Shown: positions 56,450-64,000, counted from the stretch's first letter. The stretch is DNA of 64,000 bases from Gammaproteobacteria bacterium Ga0074134 (GCA_001464965.1 LNEJ01000027.1:17003-81002), one strand, 5' to 3'. Notes: a model not told the origin generated them from the letters alone. Program-made: numbers and translations.

Positions 56450-58369
56450 ATGCCCGCCGGTGATTCACTTTCCATAGGTATTTCCGGGCTGTTGACATCG
56501 CAGCGCTCATTGTCAACAGTGAGCCAGAACATCACTAACGTCAACACTGAAGGCTATAGCCGTCAGCGTGTGGATGTTGTTACCAACACGCCGCAATTTT
56601 CCGGTGATGGTTATATTGGCACGGGTGTGGCAGTCGGTGGCGTGCGTCGCCTGTACGATGACTTCCTCACCGCCCAAGTGCAAACGAACACGGCTTCCTA
56701 TAATCAGACGGAAAATTTTTACACGCTCACCAGCCGCATCGACAACCTGCTGGCTGACCCCCAGGCAGGCCTCACGCCTAGCCTGCAAAGTTTTTTCAAC
56801 GCCGTTCAGGGTGTCGCAAATGATCCAAGCTCGGGCGCGGCGCGTCAGGTTTTACTGAGCGAGTCCGGAACGCTGGTTGATCGATTCCATTATATAGACC
56901 AGCGCTTTGGCGAATTGCGTAACGGTGTGAATGCCGAGATACAAAATCGTGTCACCGAAATTAACGGCCTTGCCCAGTCGCTTGCCAGTGTAAACCGCGA
57001 TATTTCTGTCGCCCCCGGCAGGGCATCGGGAAACCTGCCGAATGATCTGCTTGATAAACGTGATACGCTGATTGCGCAATTGTCGGAACGTGTCGCTGTG
57101 ACCACTGTGCCGCAGGACGATGGTTCTCTTAATGTGTTTATCGGCAATGGACAGGCGCTGGTCGCCGGTTTCCGCGCGCAATCCCTGAGCGTGATGAGCA
57201 ACCAGTTCGATGCGACGCGCCTGGAAGTCGGTTACCAAATGGGCACGGATACGATCAATATTTCGAATCAATTAAGCGGCGGAAAGTTGGGCGGCCTGCT
57301 GGATTTCCGCAACCGCGTGCTGGATGTGGCTCAAAATACCCTAGGGCGCGTAGCTATTGGCCTGGCAGATAATTTTAATGATCAGCATAAACTCGGCCAG
57401 GATTTGAACGGCGCGCTGGGCGGTGACTTTTTTAAGGCGCCCAGTCTCCAGGTTCAGGCAAGATCGCTTAATACCGGCACGAGTGCGGTAACAGCCTCAC
57501 TGGCGGATGCCAATGGATTGACCACCAGCGATTACCGCTTGACCTATACGGGCAGCAACAATTACACGCTCACCAGGCTTTCCGATAATCAAACATCCAC
57601 CATCAATACCGGCGGCAGCTATCCCTATACCAGCGCGGTGATTGACGGGTTTTCGCTGAATATCACTGCGGGTGCGGCAGTCAACGACAGCTTTTTGATC
57701 CAGCCCACGCGTCAGGGTGCGCAGACCATCGGCATGGTGATTAACGATGCCAAAGGCATCGCCGCCGCCGCGCCGATACGCACGTCCGCCGCGCTGGCTA
57801 ACATAAGTGCCGCCACCATTAGCCCGGGTGTGGCGAATGCGCAAGACCCTAATCTGCGCAACACGGTAAGCATCACGTTCACCTCGCCCGGCCTGTTTGA
57901 TGTCGTTGACGCAACCAACGGTACACTTGCGACGAATGTCCCCTATGTCTCTGGTCAATCCATCAGCTATAACGGCTGGACGGCAAAGATCAGTGGTTCC
58001 GCCGCAACGGGCGATGTATTTTCTGTCGGCGCAAATACCAGCGGCGTGAGTGATAATCGCAATGCATTGCTGCTTGGTCAACTGCAAAAGCAACAAACGC
58101 TGGGGGGCGGCACTGCCACATATCAGGATGCCTATGGTGAATTGGTGGCCAACGTCGGAACACAAGCCCATCAAGCGGATATTACCCGCAATGCGCAAGA
58201 TACCTTGCGCAAGCAGTCGATAGAGGCGCGCGATGCCGTATCAGGCGTCAACCTTGACGAAGAGGCTGCCAACATGGTGCGCCTGCAACAGGCTTATCAG
58301 GCCTCTGCACAGGTGATTTCGGCCACCAACACGCTCTTTCAAGCCCTTATTTTCGCCATTAGGAGATAA
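56450..58369 (+). CDS. flgK: flagellar hook-associated protein 1 FlgK
   Basis: N-terminus ISGLLTSQRSLSTVSQNITNVNTEGYSRQRV and the conserved C-terminus. Confidence 0.9.
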   Translation: MPAGDSLSIGISGLLTSQRSLSTVSQNITNVNTEGYSRQRVDVVTNTPQFSGDGYIGTGVAVGGVRRLYDDFLTAQVQTNTASYNQTENFYTLTSRIDNLLADPQAGLTPSLQSFFNAVQGVANDPSSGAARQVLLSESGTLVDRFHYIDQRFGELRNGVNAEIQNRVTEINGLAQSLASVNRDISVAPGRASGNLPNDLLDKRDTLIAQLSERVAVTTVPQDDGSLNVFIGNGQALVAGFRAQSLSVMSNQFDATRLEVGYQMGTDTINISNQLSGGKLGGLLDFRNRVLDVAQNTLGRVAIGLADNFNDQHKLGQDLNGALGGDFFKAPSLQVQARSLNTGTSAVTASLADANGLTTSDYRLTYTGSNNYTLTRLSDNQTSTINTGGSYPYTSAVIDGFSLNITAGAAVNDSFLIQPTRQGAQTIGMVINDAKGIAAAAPIRTSAALANISAATISPGVANAQDPNLRNTVSITFTSPGLFDVVDATNGTLATNVPYVSGQSISYNGWTAKISGSAATGDVFSVGANTSGVSDNRNALLLGQLQKQQTLGGGTATYQDAYGELVANVGTQAHQADITRNAQDTLRKQSIEARDAVSGVNLDEEAANMVRLQQAYQASAQVISATNTLFQALIFAIRR

Positions 58370-58372
58370 TCT

Positions 58373-59581
58373 ATGCGCATCTCCACCAATCAAATGCAGC
58401 AGCAAGGTGTAAATTCCATGCTGGAGCAGCAGGCCCTGCTCAGCAAAACGCAATTACAGGTTTCCACCGGCAAGCGCATCCTTACACCGGCGGATGATCC
58501 CGCCGCCGCCGCACAAGTGCTGAGCTTGATGCAGGAAAAGGAAGTCACTGGACAGTATCAGTCAAATGCGGAAGCGGCAAATTCGCGGCTCTCTCTGGAA
58601 GAGCAGACCTTAAGTGGCGTGGGTGATCTCCTGCAACGGGTGCGGGAGCTGGCCGTACAGGCCAATAACGCACATTTGAGCAACGAAAACCGTCTTTCCA
58701 TCGCTCAAGAGGTACGCCAACGCCTGGATGACTTGTTGGGTCTGGCGAATACAAAGGATGCCAATAACGAATATTTGTTTTCGGGTTACCAGGGAAGTAC
58801 GCAACCCTTTAGCCAGAATGCGGCGGGAGGTTTTACTTACAGCGGCGATGAGGGGCAGCGCTATTTGCAGATCGGCCCTGCAAGGCAAGTGGCGGTGGGC
58901 GATTCGGGAACAGATGTGTTTCGCGCCATCCGTAATGGCAATGGTGTTTTCACAACACAGGAGAGCCCACTCAATACTGGCAGTGGAGTGATTGATCCAG
59001 GCACCGCAACCAGCGGATTTGTTCAAGACACCTATACTCTCGCTTTTGCCCAGGTATCTCCCACTGCGCCGATCACTTACACGGTAACGGGTGCAGTGAG
59101 TGGTGTGGTAACCTCCGGCACCTATGGCAGCGGTAACAGCATTGCCTTCAATGGGGCGCAAACCAAGGTCACTGGTACGCCTGCCAATGGCGACAGTTTT
59201 ACGGTTACACCCAGCGCCAACCAGGATATTTTTACCACGCTGCAAAGTTTCGCTAAAGCCTTGGAGACACCGGTAAACGGCGCGGCATCCCAGGCGCATT
59301 TTAACAATGCTATCAATCGTACCCTTGTCGATCTGGATAATGGCTTAGGAAATATTCTTGATGTTCGCACAAAAATTGGTGCCAGGATCAATTCTATTGA
59401 TGCTCAGAAAGATATCAACGATGGCTTTAAGCTTCAGGTTCAAACAACCCTTTCCACGCTACAGGACCTCAATTATGTAGAAGCTGTCAGCCGCCTCAAC
59501 TTGCAATTGACAGGCCTGCAGGCGGCACAGCAATCTTTTATCAAAATACAGGGATTATCGTTGTTTAATTTTATCAGGTAA
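58373..59581 (+). CDS. flgL: flagellar hook-associated protein 3 FlgL
   Basis: MRISTNQMQQQGVNSML...; flagellin-like ends. Confidence 0.85.
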   Translation: MRISTNQMQQQGVNSMLEQQALLSKTQLQVSTGKRILTPADDPAAAAQVLSLMQEKEVTGQYQSNAEAANSRLSLEEQTLSGVGDLLQRVRELAVQANNAHLSNENRLSIAQEVRQRLDDLLGLANTKDANNEYLFSGYQGSTQPFSQNAAGGFTYSGDEGQRYLQIGPARQVAVGDSGTDVFRAIRNGNGVFTTQESPLNTGSGVIDPGTATSGFVQDTYTLAFAQVSPTAPITYTVTGAVSGVVTSGTYGSGNSIAFNGAQTKVTGTPANGDSFTVTPSANQDIFTTLQSFAKALETPVNGAASQAHFNNAINRTLVDLDNGLGNILDVRTKIGARINSIDAQKDINDGFKLQVQTTLSTLQDLNYVEAVSRLNLQLTGLQAAQQSFIKIQGLSLFNFIR

Positions 59582-59685
59582 CTATTTTGATAAGAGTTTT
59601 TTAAACCACCTCCTACATGTCAAGGAATGGCATAATGGCAGAGGTATGTTTCAACAACACCCCAGCAAACAGCACGAGCATTCCC

Positions 59686-59713
59686 TAAAGTTTCATCCCC
59701 TTCAGGCCGATAA
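59686..59713 (+). promoter_or_regulatory. sigma28 (FliA) promoter, copy 1
   Basis: TAAAGTTT, 12-nt spacer, GCCGATAA. It is followed by a 5' leader that is about 75% identical to the fliC leader and has a conserved hairpin. Confidence 0.5.
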
Positions 59714-59820
59714 CCAAATCGGGCGCGGTACATATTTCACATGAGAAATATGTCCGTTAAATATTAACCCATCCGCAAGTGGGTATGTCTTGTCCACTTT
59801 TGGGACGAAGAGAAAATGCC

Positions 59821-60096
59821 ATGCCCCAAGTTAACAATACCAATATTGCTTGGCGCAATGCACATATTAATCTCACCACGGCCAAACTTTCGCTCAAACC
59901 CTCTTTGCAATGCCTGTCTTTAAGGTTGCTCATCAATGGCGTCGAGGACGATGCGAAGGCTTTGGTTATTCCTTTCGCCAATACCGTCGCCAGACTGCAG
60001 AGCTATTCAAATAACTTAAGTGCAATGTATAGCCGCAGCCATGAAGCCGGCTTTAGAGCGGAGATGGGGAGCCCAATCAGCAACCAGATCCTGTAG
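59821..60096 (+). CDS. degenerate flagellin N-terminal-domain paralog (91 aa; possible pseudogene remnant or small exported protein)
   Basis: MPQVNNTNIAWRNAHINLTTAKLSLKPSLQCLSLRLLINGVEDDAKALVI aligns with the FliC N-terminus [49 protein letters not shown]. Nucleotide identity is visible (aataccaatRttgctt). The stop falls after about 91 codons. Confidence 0.5.
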   Translation: MPQVNNTNIAWRNAHINLTTAKLSLKPSLQCLSLRLLINGVEDDAKALVIPFANTVARLQSYSNNLSAMYSRSHEAGFRAEMGSPISNQIL

Positions 60097-60233
60097 AAGA
60101 TAGGTGTAGTGATGTTGGCCCAGGCCAATGTGTTATCCAGCGGAGTGTTGCTGGTATTTCGATAAGTTGATGATGAGCTTTCTCGGGTTGGGACGTCCGG
60201 GTGAGTTTTTACGTTGTGATATGAGGCAGATAT

Positions 60234-60623
60234 ATGGTTCCTAGCATTTCTGAAATGGCCACAGTGTCCCAGTCTGTGGAACATGAAACAAATGGTTTGA
60301 GCGCGGGTTCTGAAAATAGATTGCAGGATACTTTATCACAACAAAAACCATTGTCTGTTATGCGCGATGCCCATTTCTGTGGTGAGCAGGACGGACCAGC
60401 CGATGCTTTTTTGCAAGGAGCGGTCCGTAGTTTAAACGAGTTCATTCAAAATTATAGACGCGATATGCAATTCAGCATCGATGAAAGTAATGGCCGGGTC
60501 GTGGTCAAAGTCATTGACATGGAAACCCATGAGGTTATTAGACAGATTCCTTGCAAAGAGGTGATGGCGCTGGCTCGTGGCCTGGAAAAATCCAATGGTG
60601 AGTTACTTCATGCGAATGCATGA
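60234..60623 (+). CDS. flaG: FlaG-family protein, paralog 1
   Basis: C-terminal ...QFSIDESNGRVVVKVIDMETHEVIRQIPCKEVMALARGL is the FlaG signature. It is paralogous to 62740-63087. Confidence 0.7.
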   Translation: MVPSISEMATVSQSVEHETNGLSAGSENRLQDTLSQQKPLSVMRDAHFCGEQDGPADAFLQGAVRSLNEFIQNYRRDMQFSIDESNGRVVVKVIDMETHEVIRQIPCKEVMALARGLEKSNGELLHANA

Positions 60624-60676
60624 GAATTACGGTAGAAGAGTGGGTAATAGCCCACTATTTACGAGGATAAATTGAT

Positions 60677-60886
60677 ATGGCATCCATTACATCGGCGGAC
60701 ATTGGTTCTGACATAAAATCTATAAATAAAAAAAGTAATATGCTGAACAGGTGCATGGACGATATTGAAAATCACTATCGGATACAAATTACCACGCTCG
60801 ATACCGTTTTAGTGAAATTACGTAATACCAGTGACTATTTGTCTAATAGATGGTTGTATTTTAATACAATTTGTGTCGAAAAGTGA
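60677..60886 (+). CDS. hypothetical small protein (69 aa) in an AT-rich island upstream of fliC
   Basis: Good RBS (gagga 9 nt upstream of the ATG). GC is far below the genome average. No family was recognised. Confidence 0.3.
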   Translation: MASITSADIGSDIKSINKKSNMLNRCMDDIENHYRIQITTLDTVLVKLRNTSDYLSNRWLYFNTICVEK

Positions 60887-61002
60887 ACGCAAAAGCTAGT
60901 GTGGTGAGAAAAATTTAACGTGATTTTTTTATTGCTGCTTTCAGTATAGATAATCTTGACTCTCTATAGTATTTTCCTCCCCTCCACCACCAAAAAATTA
61001 CC

Positions 61003-61030
61003 TAAAGTTTGATTGCTAGCCAACCGATAA
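61003..61030 (+). promoter_or_regulatory. sigma28 (FliA) promoter of fliC
   Basis: TAAAGTTT gattgctagcca ACCGATAA lies about 110 nt upstream of the fliC ATG. Confidence 0.6.
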
Positions 61031-61140
61031 CCTAATCGGAAGCGGTAAATGTTTCAACTTAGGAAACATATCCGCTAATTATCAATCTCCGCGGTCAAGC
61101 TATTACATTAAGGCTTGCCCACGGTAAGAGGAGAACTACC

Positions 61141-62652
61141 ATGGCTGTTATCAATACCAATGTTGCTTCCTTAAATGCTCAACGCAATCTCATGACTTCG
61201 TCGTCAGAATTAGCCACTTCGCTGCAACGCCTTTCTTCTGGCTTGCGTATCAACAGCGCCAAAGATGACGCTGCCGGGCTTGCGATCTCTAGCCGGATGA
61301 CCAGCCAGATCAACGGCCTCAACCAGGCATCCCGTAATGCTAACGACGGCATTTCGCTGGCCCAGACCGCTGAAGGCGGTTTGGCCACTACCACTGACCT
61401 GCTGCAACGCATGCGCTCACTGGCCGTGCAGGCTGCCAACGGCACCAATTCCTCATCGGATCGCGCCTCCCTGCAACAGGAAGTTAGCCAAATCCAGCAG
61501 GAAATTAACCGCGTGGCCAATACGACCCAGTTCAATGGCCTGAACACCTTGGATGGTTCGCTTAATAACGCCCAGTTCCAGGTCGGCTCCAACGCCAACC
61601 AAACAATTAATTTCTCTATCAGCAGCGCCCAGGGATCCGCAATCGGCAATAACACGCTTGCAACCGCCAGCGGTGGTACCATGGTTAACGCTGCCGCAAT
61701 CGCAGCCACAATCCCAGCCAACAATGTTGCAGCGGGAACCCTGACGATTCAGGGCAACGGCGCGACCAGCGGAGCTCTCACTATCGCCGTTGGCGCCTCG
61801 GGCAAAGCTATTGCTGATGCAGTGAATGCCGCAGCCGGCTCTACAGGGGTATCCGCCTCTGCCACCACATCGGCAACGCTGGGAGGCTTCGTTGCCGGCA
61901 CCGTTTCTCTGACCTTGCAGGGTGCCCCCACCTCTGCTGGTGCGGCCAACCCGGTAACGATTAGCGCCACGCTCGCCTCTGCCACCGACGTAGGGGCCTT
62001 GACCACGGCAATTAACGCACAAACAGGCTCAACCGGCATCACTGCGGTCGCCGACACGACCACCGGAAGAATCGCGCTGACCCAGGCTCAGGGCTATGAT
62101 ATTGGTGTAAGCAACAACACCGCGCAAACTGCAATCACCGTTACCGGCGCACCTACCACTGACGGTGGAAGCGGAGTTGCAGTCACCTTGGCAGCCAGCG
62201 GCGGTATGGACTCGACTGCCGTAGGTGGCAAGGTTACCTTTAACTCTTCCTCGGCCTTCACGGCCACGGCCAGTGCTGCCGGTATACTTGCAGGTGGTGC
62301 AGTAACCCTGTCCAGCAGCCTGTCTTCAGTGGCATCCATCGACATCACAACGATGACCAGCGGCATCCCCACCGGCGCCAACAACGCATTGCAGGTGATC
62401 GATTCGGCGCTGGCCAACATCAACAATTCACGTGCTTCGCTCGGTGCCTTGCAGAATCGTTTCTCTACCACGGTCAGCAATTTGCAGGCCACCTCGGAAA
62501 ACCTGAGTGCAGCACGTAGCCGGATTCAAGACACCGACTTCGCTGCTGAAACCGCCAAGCTGACCCGCGGCCAGATCCTGCAGCAAGCCGGTACCGCGAT
62601 GTTGGCGCAAGCGAACTCGTTGCCTAATGGCGTATTGGCCCTGTTACGTTAA
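61141..62652 (+). CDS. fliC: flagellin
   Basis: 503 aa with the conserved D0/D1 N- and C-termini ([17 protein letters not shown]... ...[29 protein letters not shown]) and a Thr/Ala/Gly-rich variable middle. Confidence 0.9.
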
Positions 62653-62663
62653 TCAGTAAAAGA

Positions 62664-62692
62664 CGACCTTGCTGGGTCGTTTTAACAGGACG
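62664..62692 (+). terminator. rho-independent terminator after fliC
   Basis: Hairpin acgacc ttgctg ggtcgt followed by tttt. A second hairpin gacggaa...ttccgtc follows. Confidence 0.5.
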
Positions 62693-62739
62693 GAAGGTGG
62701 GAAACCACTTTCCGTCTACCCACTGTGAGGGGATAAATC

Positions 62740-63087
62740 ATGGACATTAATTCGATTTCAAATACAGGGCAGGCGCCCAATGCAACACTGGCTGCTACGC
62801 ATGTTTTATCGAGAAACGTGCAGCGTGTTCCAGAGCCCGGCCCCGTGCAAGCTACCGTTGTCGATGCGACGGAGTTGAAGCAGGCTGTAGAAACGATAAA
62901 TAAATCACTCAAGCCGATTGCCAGCGGCGTTCAATTTAGTACTGACCAAGATACTGGCAGAACCTTGGTCAAGGTCATTGATACGGAGACCCAGGCTGTT
63001 CTACGGCAAATCCCTTCAGAGGAGGTGCTGGCGATCTCTAAAGCGCTGGACAAGCTGCAAGGTATTGTCATCAGAACTCAGGCCTAA
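62740..63087 (+). CDS. flaG: FlaG-family protein, paralog 2
   Basis: ...VQFSTDQDTGRTLVKVIDTETQAVLRQIPSEEVLAISKAL. Confidence 0.75.
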   Translation: MDINSISNTGQAPNATLAATHVLSRNVQRVPEPGPVQATVVDATELKQAVETINKSLKPIASGVQFSTDQDTGRTLVKVIDTETQAVLRQIPSEEVLAISKALDKLQGIVIRTQA

Positions 63088-63108
63088 GCTCACTCGAGGC
63101 ACGTCGTA

Positions 63109-64000
63109 ATGATTTCTTCCCCAGGCATTGGCTCGAACCTTGATGTCAACAGCATCGTCAGCCAGTTGATGAGTGTTGAACAGCAGCCTCTCAGCCAGCT
63201 AAACAAGAAAGAAGCGAACTTTCAAGCGAAACTTTCCGGTTTAGGCACGCTTAAGAGCGCGCTCTCGCAATTCCAAACGGCGGTGCGAGGTCTCTCCGAT
63301 ATCAGCAAGTTTCAAGGGGTGCGCGTTACACCTGCTGACGCGAGCATTGTCTCCGCCAGCGGCAGTGCAGGTGCCACACCCGGTACGTATGGGCTGGAAG
63401 TGACCAAGCTCGCGCAAGCCCAAAAACTGGCTTCCGCAGGACAAGTGAGTGATAGCTCAACAATAGGCACTGGCGCTGCCACTACGCTTAGCTTCGACTT
63501 CGGCACGATTGCCGGCGGTACCTTTAATAGTGCAACCGGACTCTATACCGGTGCCAGCTTCACCACCAATGGCGCGGGCGTCAAGACCGTTACCATAGAC
63601 GCAACCAATAATTCACTCGCCGGCATCCGCGATGCGATTAATAGGGCCAATATCGGAGTGAATGCCACCATTGTGAACGATGGCAGCGCTTCACCTTATC
63701 GCCTGGCATTGACTGTGAATGCCACTGGCCAGGCCCAAAGTATGAAGATATCGGTCGCGGGCGATGCAGCCCTCTCTACCCTGCTCAGCCAAGATCCTGC
63801 CAACAACACAGGCCAAGCATTATCTGAAACGATCAGCGCCCAAAATGCTGCTTTCAAGGTGGATGGCATTGCTATCTCCAAGGCCACCAACACGATCAGT
63901 GATGTGATTCAAGGCGTTACCCTCAATCTGGCAAAGACCAATGCCGGTAGTCCCACCAATATTACGGTGGCGCGCGATACCAGTTCGGTGATAGCTGCCG
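63109..64000 (+). CDS. fliD: flagellar filament capping protein FliD (N-terminal part; continues beyond the window end)
   Basis: MISSPGIGSNLDVNSIVSQLMSVEQQPLSQLNKKEANFQAKLSGLGTLKSAL is the FliD N-terminus. An RBS (gagg) precedes the ATG at 63109. No stop occurs before 64000. Confidence 0.8.
   Translation, partial: MISSPGIGSNLDVNSIVSQLMSVEQQPLSQLNKKEANFQAKLSGLGTLKSALSQFQTAVRGLSDISKFQGVRVTPADASIVSASGSAGATPGTYGLEVTKLAQAQKLASAGQVSDSSTIGTGAATTLSFDFGTIAGGTFNSATGLYTGASFTTNGAGVKTVTIDATNNSLAGIRDAINRANIGVNATIVNDGSASPYRLALTVNATGQAQSMKISVAGDAALSTLLSQDPANNTGQALSETISAQNAAFKVDGIAISKATNTISDVIQGVTLNLAKTNAGSPTNITVARDTSSVIAA

What the first reader, a model, noticed from the sequence alone, without database searches (positions are those of the whole stretch)
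59582..63108. Tandemly duplicated sigma28-promoter/leader/flagellin-N/flaG module with a decayed first flagellin copy
Two sigma28 promoters (59686 and 61003) are followed by leaders that are clearly homologous (ccgataacc.aatcgg.gcggta.at.tttca...gaaa.at.tccg.taa.tat). The first leader drives a 91-codon ORF whose product and DNA align with the first about 50 residues of FliC before diverging and stopping. It is followed by a FlaG paralog. The second leader drives the full fliC and a second FlaG. The first copy retains exactly the flagellin N-terminal segment, which is the type-III export signal and D0 helix. It could therefore be a pseudogene relic. It could instead be a small FliA-dependent exported peptide, for example an export-gate competitor or regulatory decoy. 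I am not aware of a described class of flagellin-N-terminus-only proteins.
Basis: partly seen in the sequence, partly recalled or inferred. Interest (0 to 1): 0.6.

Follow-up and report, generated by a model that had tools for sequence, protein, structure and literature searches.

The report
Decayed duplicate flagellin cassette keeping flaG
Between flgL and the working flagellin gene lies the wreck of a second fliC–flaG–fliD cassette in which only the small flaG gene and its flagellar control signals are still conserved, so the short "flagellin-like" ORF is an ordinary pseudogene, not a new kind of exported peptide.

Summary
The duplicated module is real. The only two strict sigma28-type promoters in the window sit at 59686 and 61003. 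Their leaders are homologous, and there are two FlaG genes.

The 91-codon ORF (59821-60096) is not N-terminus-only. It is FliC residues 3-49 joined to FliC residues 442-503, an internal deletion of about 390 codons. An in-frame TAG cuts it 22 codons before the ancestral TAA at 60163-60165. A third relic, a 69-codon mini-fliD, lies at 60677-60886, so the copied unit was fliC-flaG-fliD.

In four related lineages the relic is broken in different ways: a nonsense codon, a frameshift plus a different nonsense codon, a 155-nt out-of-frame deletion, and a 132-nt insertion. Its pN/pS is about 1. Exhaustive protein searches find no family of such short proteins.

By contrast, flaG1 is intact in every lineage and under purifying selection (omega 0.24-0.44). 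The -35 and -10 boxes, a 5' hairpin and a hairpin plus T-run before flaG1 are conserved above the neutral level.

Best reading: fliC' and fliD' are pseudogenes, and the orphaned flagellin promoter and leader are kept to express a second FlaG. This is ordinary and of low interest.

The parts
59686..59713 (+). sigma28 (FliA)-type promoter 1: TAAAGTTT-N12-GCCGATAA
   Evidence: One of only 2 matches in the window, 0 expected by chance. Across 4 lineages, 0 of 15 box positions vary while 5 of 13 spacer positions vary.
59725..59757 (+). 5' leader hairpin (GCGG-U-ACAUAUUUC / GAAAUAUGU-CCGU), paralogous to 61041-61076
   Evidence: Predicted in every leader folded. Only 2 of 26 core columns vary, against 31% in the relic body. 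The 7-bp inner stem is paired in 8 of 8 sequences, with one A-U to G-C compensatory change between the paralogues.
59807..59823 (+). degraded Shine-Dalgarno (GAAGAG; GAGGAG in relatives) and ATG of the relic
   Evidence: Alignments.
59821..60096 (+). 91-codon ORF, the open part of the fliC' pseudogene; TAG at 60094-60096 is CAG in all relatives
59821..60165 (+). whole fliC' relic: N part (about 59830-59970) matches FliC 3-49; C part (59977-60162) matches FliC 442-503; ancestral stop TAA at 60163-60165
   Evidence: pN/pS is 0.63-1.13 for the N part and 0.54-1.7 for the C part. Lesions differ between lineages.
60182..60211 (+). hairpin plus T5 run (terminator/attenuator-like) between the relic and flaG1, in the position of the fliC-flaG2 hairpins
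   Evidence: Found by the pattern scan and in the folds. Only 2 of 30 columns vary, P = 0.0015 against the relic body. Its folding energy is not exceptional against shuffles.
60234..60623 (+). flaG1, an intact FlaG paralogue (129 aa)
   Evidence: Pfam FlaG E = 3.8e-19. Intact in all lineages, omega 0.24-0.44. Fisher P = 1e-5 to 2e-6.
60677..60886 (+). fliD' relic (69 codons: about 15 N-terminal residues plus about 45 C-terminal residues of FliD)
   Evidence: FliD_C E = 0.009. Aligned to FliD. pN/pS = 0.60 between the window and L003. Deleted in L001, L002 and L004. GC falls to 0.35.
61003..61030 (+). sigma28-type promoter 2 (fliC)
61041..61076 (+). 5' leader hairpin of fliC
61141..62652 (+). 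fliC, intact flagellin (503 aa)
   Evidence: Pfam Flagellin_N 3e-44, Flagellin_C 4e-26 and Flagellin_IN. omega 0.08-0.14.
62660..62717 (+). two strong hairpins between fliC and flaG2 (62660-62683 with flanking A/U runs; 62688-62717)
   Evidence: Fold z = -5.3.
62740..63087 (+). flaG2 (115 aa)
   Evidence: Pfam FlaG 1.3e-22. omega 0.18-0.43.
63110..64000 (+). fliD, cut by the window end; full length (673 aa) in L002 and L004

Best explanation
Module 1 (59686-60886) is the degraded remnant of a second fliC-flaG-fliD cassette lying beside the working one.

Shown:
- The flagellin copy lost about 390 internal codons before the sampled lineages split. It has since drifted neutrally and picked up a different disabling lesion in each lineage, so it is a pseudogene.
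- The fliD copy is likewise an internally deleted relic and is dispensable.
- flaG1 is an intact gene under purifying selection.

Inferred:
- The conserved sigma28 boxes, 5' hairpin and downstream hairpin plus T-run persist because they are now the expression signals of flaG1.
- FliA would transcribe a fliC'-flaG1 mRNA late in flagellar assembly, as a class IV transcript, in the way fleL/flaG is co-expressed with fliC in Pseudomonas.
- The relic would serve only as a long 5' leader, and read-through of the hairpin plus T-run would set the FlaG1 dose.
- By analogy with C. jejuni FlaG, FlaG1 would antagonise FliS-flagellin docking at FlhA and so tune filament length alongside FlaG2.
For: Homology and anatomy:
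- The relic matches FliC 3-49 plus 442-503, and Flagellin_C with read-through.
- The order of elements is the same in both modules: promoter, 5' hairpin, SD, flagellin, hairpin, flaG, fliD.

Pseudogene status:
- The lesions are independent. The window has a TAG where relatives have CAG. L001/L004 have a frameshift, indels and another TAG. L003/L002 have a 155-nt out-of-frame deletion. L002 also has a 132-nt insertion. The resulting products are 91, 63, 36 and 12 aa.
- pN/pS is about 1, Fisher P = 0.38-0.82. In the close pair L003/L017 the relic shows 1 synonymous and 4 non-synonymous changes.
- The relic middle is only 57% identical between lineages.
- GC falls to 0.35-0.48, against 0.53-0.61 in neighbouring genes.
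- The SD is weakened in the window.
- There are no short homologues beyond this clade.

flaG1 is functional:
- It is intact in all lineages with omega 0.24-0.44, P about 1e-6. The L003/L017 pair shows 11 synonymous and 8 non-synonymous changes.

Regulatory signals are constrained:
- 0 of 15 promoter-box positions vary, against 5 of 13 spacer positions.
- The 5' hairpin core varies at 2 of 26 positions (P = 0.005).
- The hairpin plus T-run varies at 2 of 30 positions (P = 0.0015).
- No other sigma28, sigma54 or sigma70 consensus lies upstream of flaG1.

Literature:
- fleL/flaG are class IV genes co-expressed with fliC (PMC8036289).
- FlaG competes with FliS-flagellin for FlhA (PMC11536152).
Against: - No transcription data exist, so promoter use and read-through into flaG1 are inferred.
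- The conservation statistics rest on only 4 independent lineages and short segments (P about 0.002-0.005).
- The window lineage's own leader is more diverged (78-80% identity to the others, which are 92-96% identical among themselves) and its SD is weakened. Constraint on the leader may therefore be relaxing here.
- A conserved hairpin plus T-run between promoter and flaG1 could terminate most transcripts, which sits awkwardly with 'promoter kept for flaG1'.
- The first ~31 codons of the relic are slightly better conserved (81-84%) than the C part (70-79%).
- The pN/pS estimates rest on only about 57 codons.
Confidence: 0.72

Rival explanations
1. The relic transcript itself is functional as RNA. 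It would be a discrete sigma28-dependent RNA of about 450-490 nt that carries a copy of the fliC 5' leader and ends at the 60182-60211 hairpin. It would act as a decoy or sponge for whatever factor binds the fliC leader hairpin or SD, such as a CsrA/Rsm-type or other post-transcriptional regulator.
For: The 5' hairpin is conserved in both paralogous leaders, with one compensatory pair. The promoter boxes and the downstream hairpin plus T-run are conserved while the coding body is not. The leader motif is specific to this lineage and absent from fliC leaders of more distant taxa.
Against: Expression of flaG1 explains the same conservation more simply. The relic hairpin loop has no GGA motif, unlike the fliC leader loop. 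Rfam gives no match. The body between leader and terminator is freely deleted or carries an insertion in some lineages. The terminator-like hairpin is energetically weak.
Confidence: 0.1
2. The 91-aa product would be a FliA-dependent exported or regulatory peptide: a flagellin export signal plus D0 helix acting as a decoy for the export gate or for FliS.
For: A sigma28 promoter, an SD-like sequence and an ATG are present. The N part retains similarity to the flagellin segment that carries the export signal in Salmonella (established knowledge). The window's relic keeps one frame over 114 codons with a single stop.
Against: Orthologues would encode products of 63, 36 and 12 aa that share only the first few residues. 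pN/pS is about 1. The TAG removes the last 22 residues, which in flagellins form part of the FliS-binding C-terminus (established knowledge). Pfam Flagellin_N does not recognise the product. No homologous short proteins turned up in two very large searches. The SD is weakened in this very lineage.
Confidence: 0.04
3. All of module 1, flaG1 included, is dead DNA on its way out. On this view the apparent conservation of promoter, hairpins and flaG1 reflects limited divergence time or chance.
For: GC is low across the whole module, flaG1 included at 0.45. The flaG1 N-terminal half carries in-frame indels, and its 3' end is truncated by a deletion in L001, L002 and L004.
Against: flaG1 has a strong excess of synonymous over non-synonymous change (omega 0.24-0.44, P about 1e-6). 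Its ORF is intact in all seven loci where it is seen whole (window, L001-L004, L017, L018), while its two neighbours are wrecked. Synonymous divergence of 0.21-0.36 gives ample time for decay.
Confidence: 0.05
4. Module 1 is the original resident cassette, and module 2 (fliC-flaG2-fliD) is a laterally acquired replacement rather than an in-situ tandem duplicate. This concerns origin only and is compatible with the best explanation.
For: FlaG1 and FlaG2 are as different from each other (41%) as each is from FlaG of other taxa (44-51%). FlaG1's closest outgroup, P0006, shares its N-terminus (MVPNI..) and is followed by an intact fliD-fliS-fliT. Further fliS' and fliD' relics lie downstream of fliD in L002 and L004.
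Against: The two promoter/leader regions share a lineage-specific motif at 74-77% identity that is absent in distant taxa. That favours a common local origin or gene conversion. The relic is equally distant from the resident FliC and from the best foreign flagellins, at about 46-47%.
Confidence: 0.35

Closest known systems
Pseudomonas aeruginosa / P. fluorescens fliC-fleL(flaG)-fliD-fliS(-fliS')-fleP locus
   Same: The gene order is the same: fliC-flaG-fliD-fliS-fliT, downstream of a flgZ-flgN-flgA | cheV-cheR-flgB..L cluster. flaG/fleL is a sigma28 class IV gene co-expressed with flagellin (PMC8036289). The locus tolerates extra partial duplicates, such as fliS' in a-type strains (PMC8036289).
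   Different: Here a whole second cassette is present, but two of its three genes are internally deleted pseudogenes. That leaves a FlaG paralogue behind an orphan flagellin promoter.
FlaG as antagonist of FliS-flagellin docking at FlhA (Campylobacter jejuni; also filament-length phenotypes in V. cholerae and P. aeruginosa), Waller et al. 2024, PMC11536152
   Same: flaG1 and flaG2 both carry the Pfam FlaG domain and sit directly after a flagellin gene or relic.
   Different: Function was not tested here. There are two diverged paralogues (41% identity) rather than one.
Duplicated (non-processed) bacterial pseudogenes / gene remnants
   Same: The relic is homologous to a functional neighbour and carries an internal deletion and a nonsense codon. 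Orthologues carry lineage-specific frameshifts, deletions and an insertion. pN/pS is about 1 and GC has drifted down.
   Different: The upstream promoter and leader are still under constraint, apparently co-opted for the surviving downstream gene.
Engineered or natural short flagellins (D0/D1-only, about 250-290 aa)
   Same: The relic retains the terminal helical segments.
   Different: The 114-codon relic lacks almost all of D1: Flagellin_N gives no hit and Flagellin_C matches only model positions 27-83. The shortest genuine flagellins hit in the exhaustive search are 257-296 aa. From established knowledge of filament structure, it could not polymerise.

Membership tests
Flagellin (functional FliC; Pfam PF00669 + PF00700) | Uninterrupted ORF spanning the N- and C-terminal helical regions | tested here: not met
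   An in-frame TAG at 60094-60096 lies 22 codons before the ancestral stop.
Flagellin (functional FliC; Pfam PF00669 + PF00700) | Recognisable Flagellin_N domain (about 139 positions, D0+D1) | tested here: not met
   No Flagellin_N hit at E <= 1. Only about 47 residues align to FliC 3-49. phmmer hits to flagellin N-termini are weak, E >= 1.8e-8.
Flagellin (functional FliC; Pfam PF00669 + PF00700) | Flagellin_C domain | tested here: inconclusive
   24.1 bits against a cut-off of 23, but only when the TAG is read through, and only model positions 27-83 of 86.
Flagellin (functional FliC; Pfam PF00669 + PF00700) | Purifying selection as in orthologous fliC (omega about 0.1) | tested here: not met
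   Relic pN/pS is 0.54-1.7, against fliC at 0.08-0.14.
Duplicated pseudogene | Homology to a functional parent or paralogue | tested here: met
Duplicated pseudogene | Disabling lesions that differ among orthologous copies | tested here: met
Duplicated pseudogene | Neutral substitution pattern | tested here: met
   pN/pS is about 1 and not different from neutrality (P = 0.38-0.82), though on only about 57 codons.
sigma28 (FliA) class IV promoter | TAAAGTTT-N11/12-GCCGATAA consensus | tested here: met
   8/8 plus 8/8 matches at 59686-59713 with a 12-nt spacer, the same as the fliC promoter. These are the only 2 sites in the window.
sigma28 (FliA) class IV promoter | Boxes conserved in orthologues while the spacer varies | tested here: met
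   0 of 15 box positions vary, against 5 of 13 spacer positions.
sigma28 (FliA) class IV promoter | FliA-dependent transcription start | not testable with these tools
   Needs RNA data or reporter fusions.
FlaG (PF03646) | FlaG domain | tested here: met
   flaG1 E = 3.8e-19; flaG2 E = 1.3e-22.
FlaG (PF03646) | Encoded directly downstream of a flagellin gene in a polar-flagellum cluster | tested here: met
FlaG (PF03646) | Limits filament length / binds FlhA | not testable with these tools
   Known only from experiments in other species (PMC11536152).
FliD (filament cap) | FliD_N and FliD_C domains in one long ORF (about 450-680 aa) | tested here: not met
   The 69-aa ORF matches only FliD residues 2-16 and 620-663. 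FliD_C scores 15.9 bits, below the cut-off of 25.4. It is deleted in three relatives.

The most novel reading that the evidence does not exclude
The orphaned flagellin promoter, leader and relic may be more than a flaG1 promoter. One possibility is that the short sigma28-dependent fliC' RNA, which carries a copy of the fliC 5' hairpin and ends at the conserved hairpin plus T-run, titrates a post-transcriptional regulator of fliC. The other is that the ancestral in-frame 114-aa D0-only mini-flagellin once acted as a FliS/FlhA decoy before decaying in every sampled lineage.
Probability: 0.08. Interest if true: 0.55.

Novelty: new member of a known kind. Interest (0 to 1): 0.15.

Why it matters
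This result mainly guards against over-interpretation. Gene callers annotate the 91-aa ORF as a hypothetical protein, and it is in public databases as P0018. It should be labelled as a flagellin pseudogene. The mildly useful points are two. First, a clade of uncultured Gammaproteobacteria (as labelled in the MAG records), seen here in an activated-carbon metagenome, keeps two diverged FlaG paralogues. That may matter now that FlaG is known to gate flagellin export. Second, the locus shows how a promoter and leader can outlive their original gene by serving the next gene downstream.

Tried and rejected
- A global protein alignment of the relic to FliC first placed everything on the C-terminus. 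Separate local alignments of the two halves resolved the N plus C structure.
- The first pN/pS run on the C part was in the wrong frame, because window-only alignment columns had been dropped. It was redone.
- A metagenome-contig scan with FlaG1 found nothing.
- An Rfam scan of 59400-63300 gave only a chance snoRNA hit at E = 0.9.
- Consensus scans for sigma70 and sigma54 gave no credible separate flaG1 promoter.
- P0088, the one other short hit (104 aa), is a flagellin N-terminal fragment. Its C-terminal half looks by eye like the opposite-strand reading of flagellin N-terminal DNA (compare the minus-strand ORFs), so it is probably an assembly chimera. That was not checked, and it is not a mini-flagellin.
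- The relic as a silent cassette for antigenic variation or gene conversion was rejected. It lacks the variable central domain, and its longest exact match to fliC is 10 nt.
- Stop-codon read-through or recoding of the TAG was rejected. Relatives have CAG there and carry other lesions.
- fliC leaders of more distant taxa (L014-L016) do not share the leader motif, so no wider RNA family could be built.
- Literature searches for 'flagellin pseudogene' and 'truncated flagellin' gave nothing relevant.
- No structure prediction was run, because it could not change the verdict.
Full report
**1. What is in the sequence**

The region follows flgK (56450-58369) and flgL (58373-59581) at the end of a Pseudomonas/Vibrio-type polar flagellar cluster. 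That cluster carries a PilZ/FlgZ-like gene, flgN, flgA, a cheV-like gene, cheR and flgB onward.

The strict pattern TAAAGTTT-N10-13-CCGATAA occurs only twice in the 64 kb, at 59686 and 61003, with none expected by chance. Both sites have a 12-nt spacer. The two upstream regions are homologous: 77% identity over 186 aligned columns, and 74% over the promoter plus the first about 60 nt of leader.

Each leader is predicted to begin with a hairpin, at 59725-59757 and at 61041-61076. The 7-bp inner stem is paired in all eight orthologous and paralogous leaders examined. It shows a single A-U to G-C compensatory change between the two paralogue groups.

**2. The 91-codon ORF is an internally deleted flagellin, not an N-terminal fragment**

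Reading 59821 onward in frame gives 91 codons, then TAG (60094-60096), then 22 more codons, then TAA (60163-60165). Residues 4-50 align with FliC 3-49. Residues 53-114 align with FliC 442-503, including QIL*KIGVVMLAQANVLSSGVLLVFR against [26 protein letters not shown].

With the TAG read as Q, Pfam Flagellin_C matches at E = 4.6e-5, just above its cut-off. Flagellin_N is not detected. The relic is therefore FliC with about residues 50-441 deleted, plus a nonsense codon.

- Downstream lies a hairpin plus T5 run at 60182-60211.
- flaG1 follows at 60234-60623. It matches Pfam FlaG at 3.8e-19 and shares 41% identity with FlaG2.
- A 69-codon ORF at 60677-60886 follows.
- Module 2 then repeats the same order with intact genes: promoter, leader hairpin, fliC (61141-62652), two strong hairpins (62660-62717, z = -5.3), flaG2 (62740-63087) and fliD (63110 onward).

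The duplicated unit was therefore fliC-flaG-fliD.

**3. Relatives**

The window's own sequence recurs at 100% identity in several independent assemblies of an activated-carbon metagenome project and in an NCBI WGS record, so it is not an assembly artefact.

FlaG1 orthologues are rare. They led to four further lineages:
- L001/L004, two MAGs of one species;
- L002, a MAG;
- L003;
- the close L003 relatives L017-L019.

Synonymous divergence among lineages is substantial. pS is 0.21-0.31 in flgK, flgL and fliC, and 0.18-0.36 in flaG1 for pairs of different lineages.

**4. The relic is broken differently in each lineage** (alignments; C-terminal frames)

- Window: CAG to TAG at codon 92. All the relatives have CAG there.
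- L001/L004: a 1-nt insertion near codon 34 gives a stop after 36 codons. There are further indels and a different TAG (..ILA*ANV..).
- L003, L017 and L002: a shared 155-nt out-of-frame deletion of the middle, giving a 63-aa ORF whose tail is out of the flagellin frame.
- L002 in addition: a 132-nt, highly structured insertion at codon 4, flanked by a short direct repeat. This leaves a 12-aa ORF.

The predicted products of 91, 63, 36 and 12 aa share only their first residues.

pN/pS is 0.63-1.13 for the first 31 codons and 0.54-1.7 for the last 26 codons. Neither differs from neutrality (Fisher P = 0.38-0.82). The comparison values are 0.08-0.14 for fliC, 0.17 for flgL and 0.08 for flgK. In the close pair L003/L017 the relic has 1 synonymous and 4 non-synonymous changes.

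The relic middle is only 57% identical between the window and L001. GC falls to 0.35-0.48 across module 1, against 0.53-0.61 in the flanking genes.

A word-indexed search of 5.8 billion proteins with the read-through product found only the ORF itself. An exhaustive HMMER search of 1.84 billion representatives found the following:
- full-length flagellins of 257-1060 aa, at weak E-values (>= 1.8e-8);
- the L003-type 63-aa ORF;
- one 104-aa hit that is a flagellin N-terminal fragment. Its C-terminal half looks like opposite-strand sequence, so it is probably an assembly chimera, though this was not checked.

There is no family of short flagellin-terminus proteins here.

**5. What is conserved**

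flaG1 is intact in every lineage, with omega 0.24-0.44. Non-synonymous change is depleted at P = 2e-6 and 1e-5. The L003/L017 pair shows 11 synonymous and 8 non-synonymous differences.

The fraction of variable columns across four independent lineages was compared with the relic body, which varies at 31%.

| Segment | Variable columns | P against relic body |
|---|---|---|
| -35 and -10 boxes | 0 of 15 | about 0.004 (calculated here as 0.69^15 from the counts) |
| Promoter spacer | 5 of 13 | not constrained |
| 5' hairpin core | 2 of 26 | 0.005 |
| Hairpin plus T-run before flaG1 | 2 of 30 | 0.0015 |

The relic-flaG1 intergenic region is 87-97% identical between lineages. No sigma70, sigma54 or further sigma28 consensus lies between the promoter and flaG1.

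The fliD' relic has pN/pS of 0.60. A shared roughly 355-nt deletion removes it in L001, L002 and L004, together with the last codons of flaG1.

**6. Interpretation**

Shown:
- fliC' and fliD' are pseudogene remnants of a second cassette.
- flaG1 is a maintained gene.

Inferred:
- The flagellin promoter and leader survive because they now express flaG1 as a FliA-dependent late gene.
- The relic acts as a long leader, and the hairpin plus T-run acts as an attenuator.
- This mirrors module 2 and the Pseudomonas arrangement, in which fleL/flaG is a class IV gene co-expressed with fliC (PMC8036289).
- FlaG is known from C. jejuni to compete with FliS-flagellin complexes for FlhA and so limit filament length. 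Deleting flaG lengthens filaments in V. cholerae and P. aeruginosa too (PMC11536152).

Caveats:
- There are no expression data.
- The statistics rest on few lineages.
- The window lineage's leader is the most diverged (78-80% identity), with a weakened SD (GAAGAG against GAGGAG).
- The hairpin plus T-run is energetically unremarkable.

**7. Origin**

FlaG1 and FlaG2 are as far from each other (41%) as each is from FlaG of other taxa (44-51%). FlaG1's nearest outgroup, P0006, shares its N-terminus and is followed by an intact fliD-fliS-fliT. The relic is about equally distant from the resident FliC and from foreign flagellins.

The two leaders, however, share a motif that is absent from fliC leaders of more distant taxa. 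An old in-situ duplication cannot be told apart from cassette acquisition or replacement followed by concerted evolution of the leader.

Additional fliS' and fliD' relics lie downstream of fliD in L002 and L004. The sharing of deletions is also inconsistent: L002 groups with L003 for one deletion and with L004 for the other. Both observations point to a recombination-prone locus.

**8. Verdict**

The pseudogene reading is supported and the exported-peptide reading is not. This is a further instance of a known phenomenon, with the small twist of an orphan flagellin promoter and leader apparently retained for a second FlaG paralogue. Interest is low.

Noticed in passing
L002:5624-5755: A roughly 132-nt insertion in codon 4 of the fliC' relic. 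It folds into several stable hairpins (MFE -50.6 kcal/mol) and is flanked by a short direct repeat (TGCCTAGT / TGCTAGT). This looks like a miniature mobile element with a target-site duplication. No second copy occurs in the loci held.
   Followed up: partly
L002:10551-10942; L004:5566-5784: Further relics lie between the intact fliD and fliS: a 62-aa FliS-like N-terminal ORF and a 72-aa FliD C-terminal ORF (Pfam FliD_C). The window's mini-FliD (60677-60886) is closer to this second relic (score 124) than to the C-terminus of the intact L002 FliD (score 65). More than one round of cassette duplication or replacement seems to have occurred. The window ends before this position.
   Followed up: partly
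window 59917-60069 and 60590-60950, compared with L001-L004: The sharing of deletions is phylogenetically inconsistent. L002 and L003 share the 155-nt relic deletion. L002 and L001/L004 share the roughly 355-nt deletion that removes the flaG1 3' end and fliD'. This suggests recombination between lineages or parallel deletion.
   Followed up: no
window 62650-62745: The fliC-flaG2 intergenic region carries two strong hairpins (62660-62683, flanked by A and U runs; 62688-62717, 13 bp). The fold has z = -5.3. They are probably a terminator/attenuator pair that sets flaG2-fliD read-through.
   Followed up: partly
window 59200-61200: GC drops from about 0.55-0.60 in flgL and fliC to 0.35-0.48 across module 1. 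The minimum is over the fliD' relic and the region upstream of the fliC promoter.
   Followed up: no
L017:3417-3577: A roughly 160-nt segment lies between the fliD' relic and the fliC promoter and is absent from the otherwise 96%-identical L003. It was not characterised.
   Followed up: no
window 61024-61039: The -10 region of the fliC promoter lies in an inverted repeat, CCGAT-AACCTA-ATCGG. The repeat is kept in three of the four fliC leaders aligned (L004 has AGCGG). It is imperfect in the relic promoters of the relatives (CCGAT..ACCGG).
   Followed up: no
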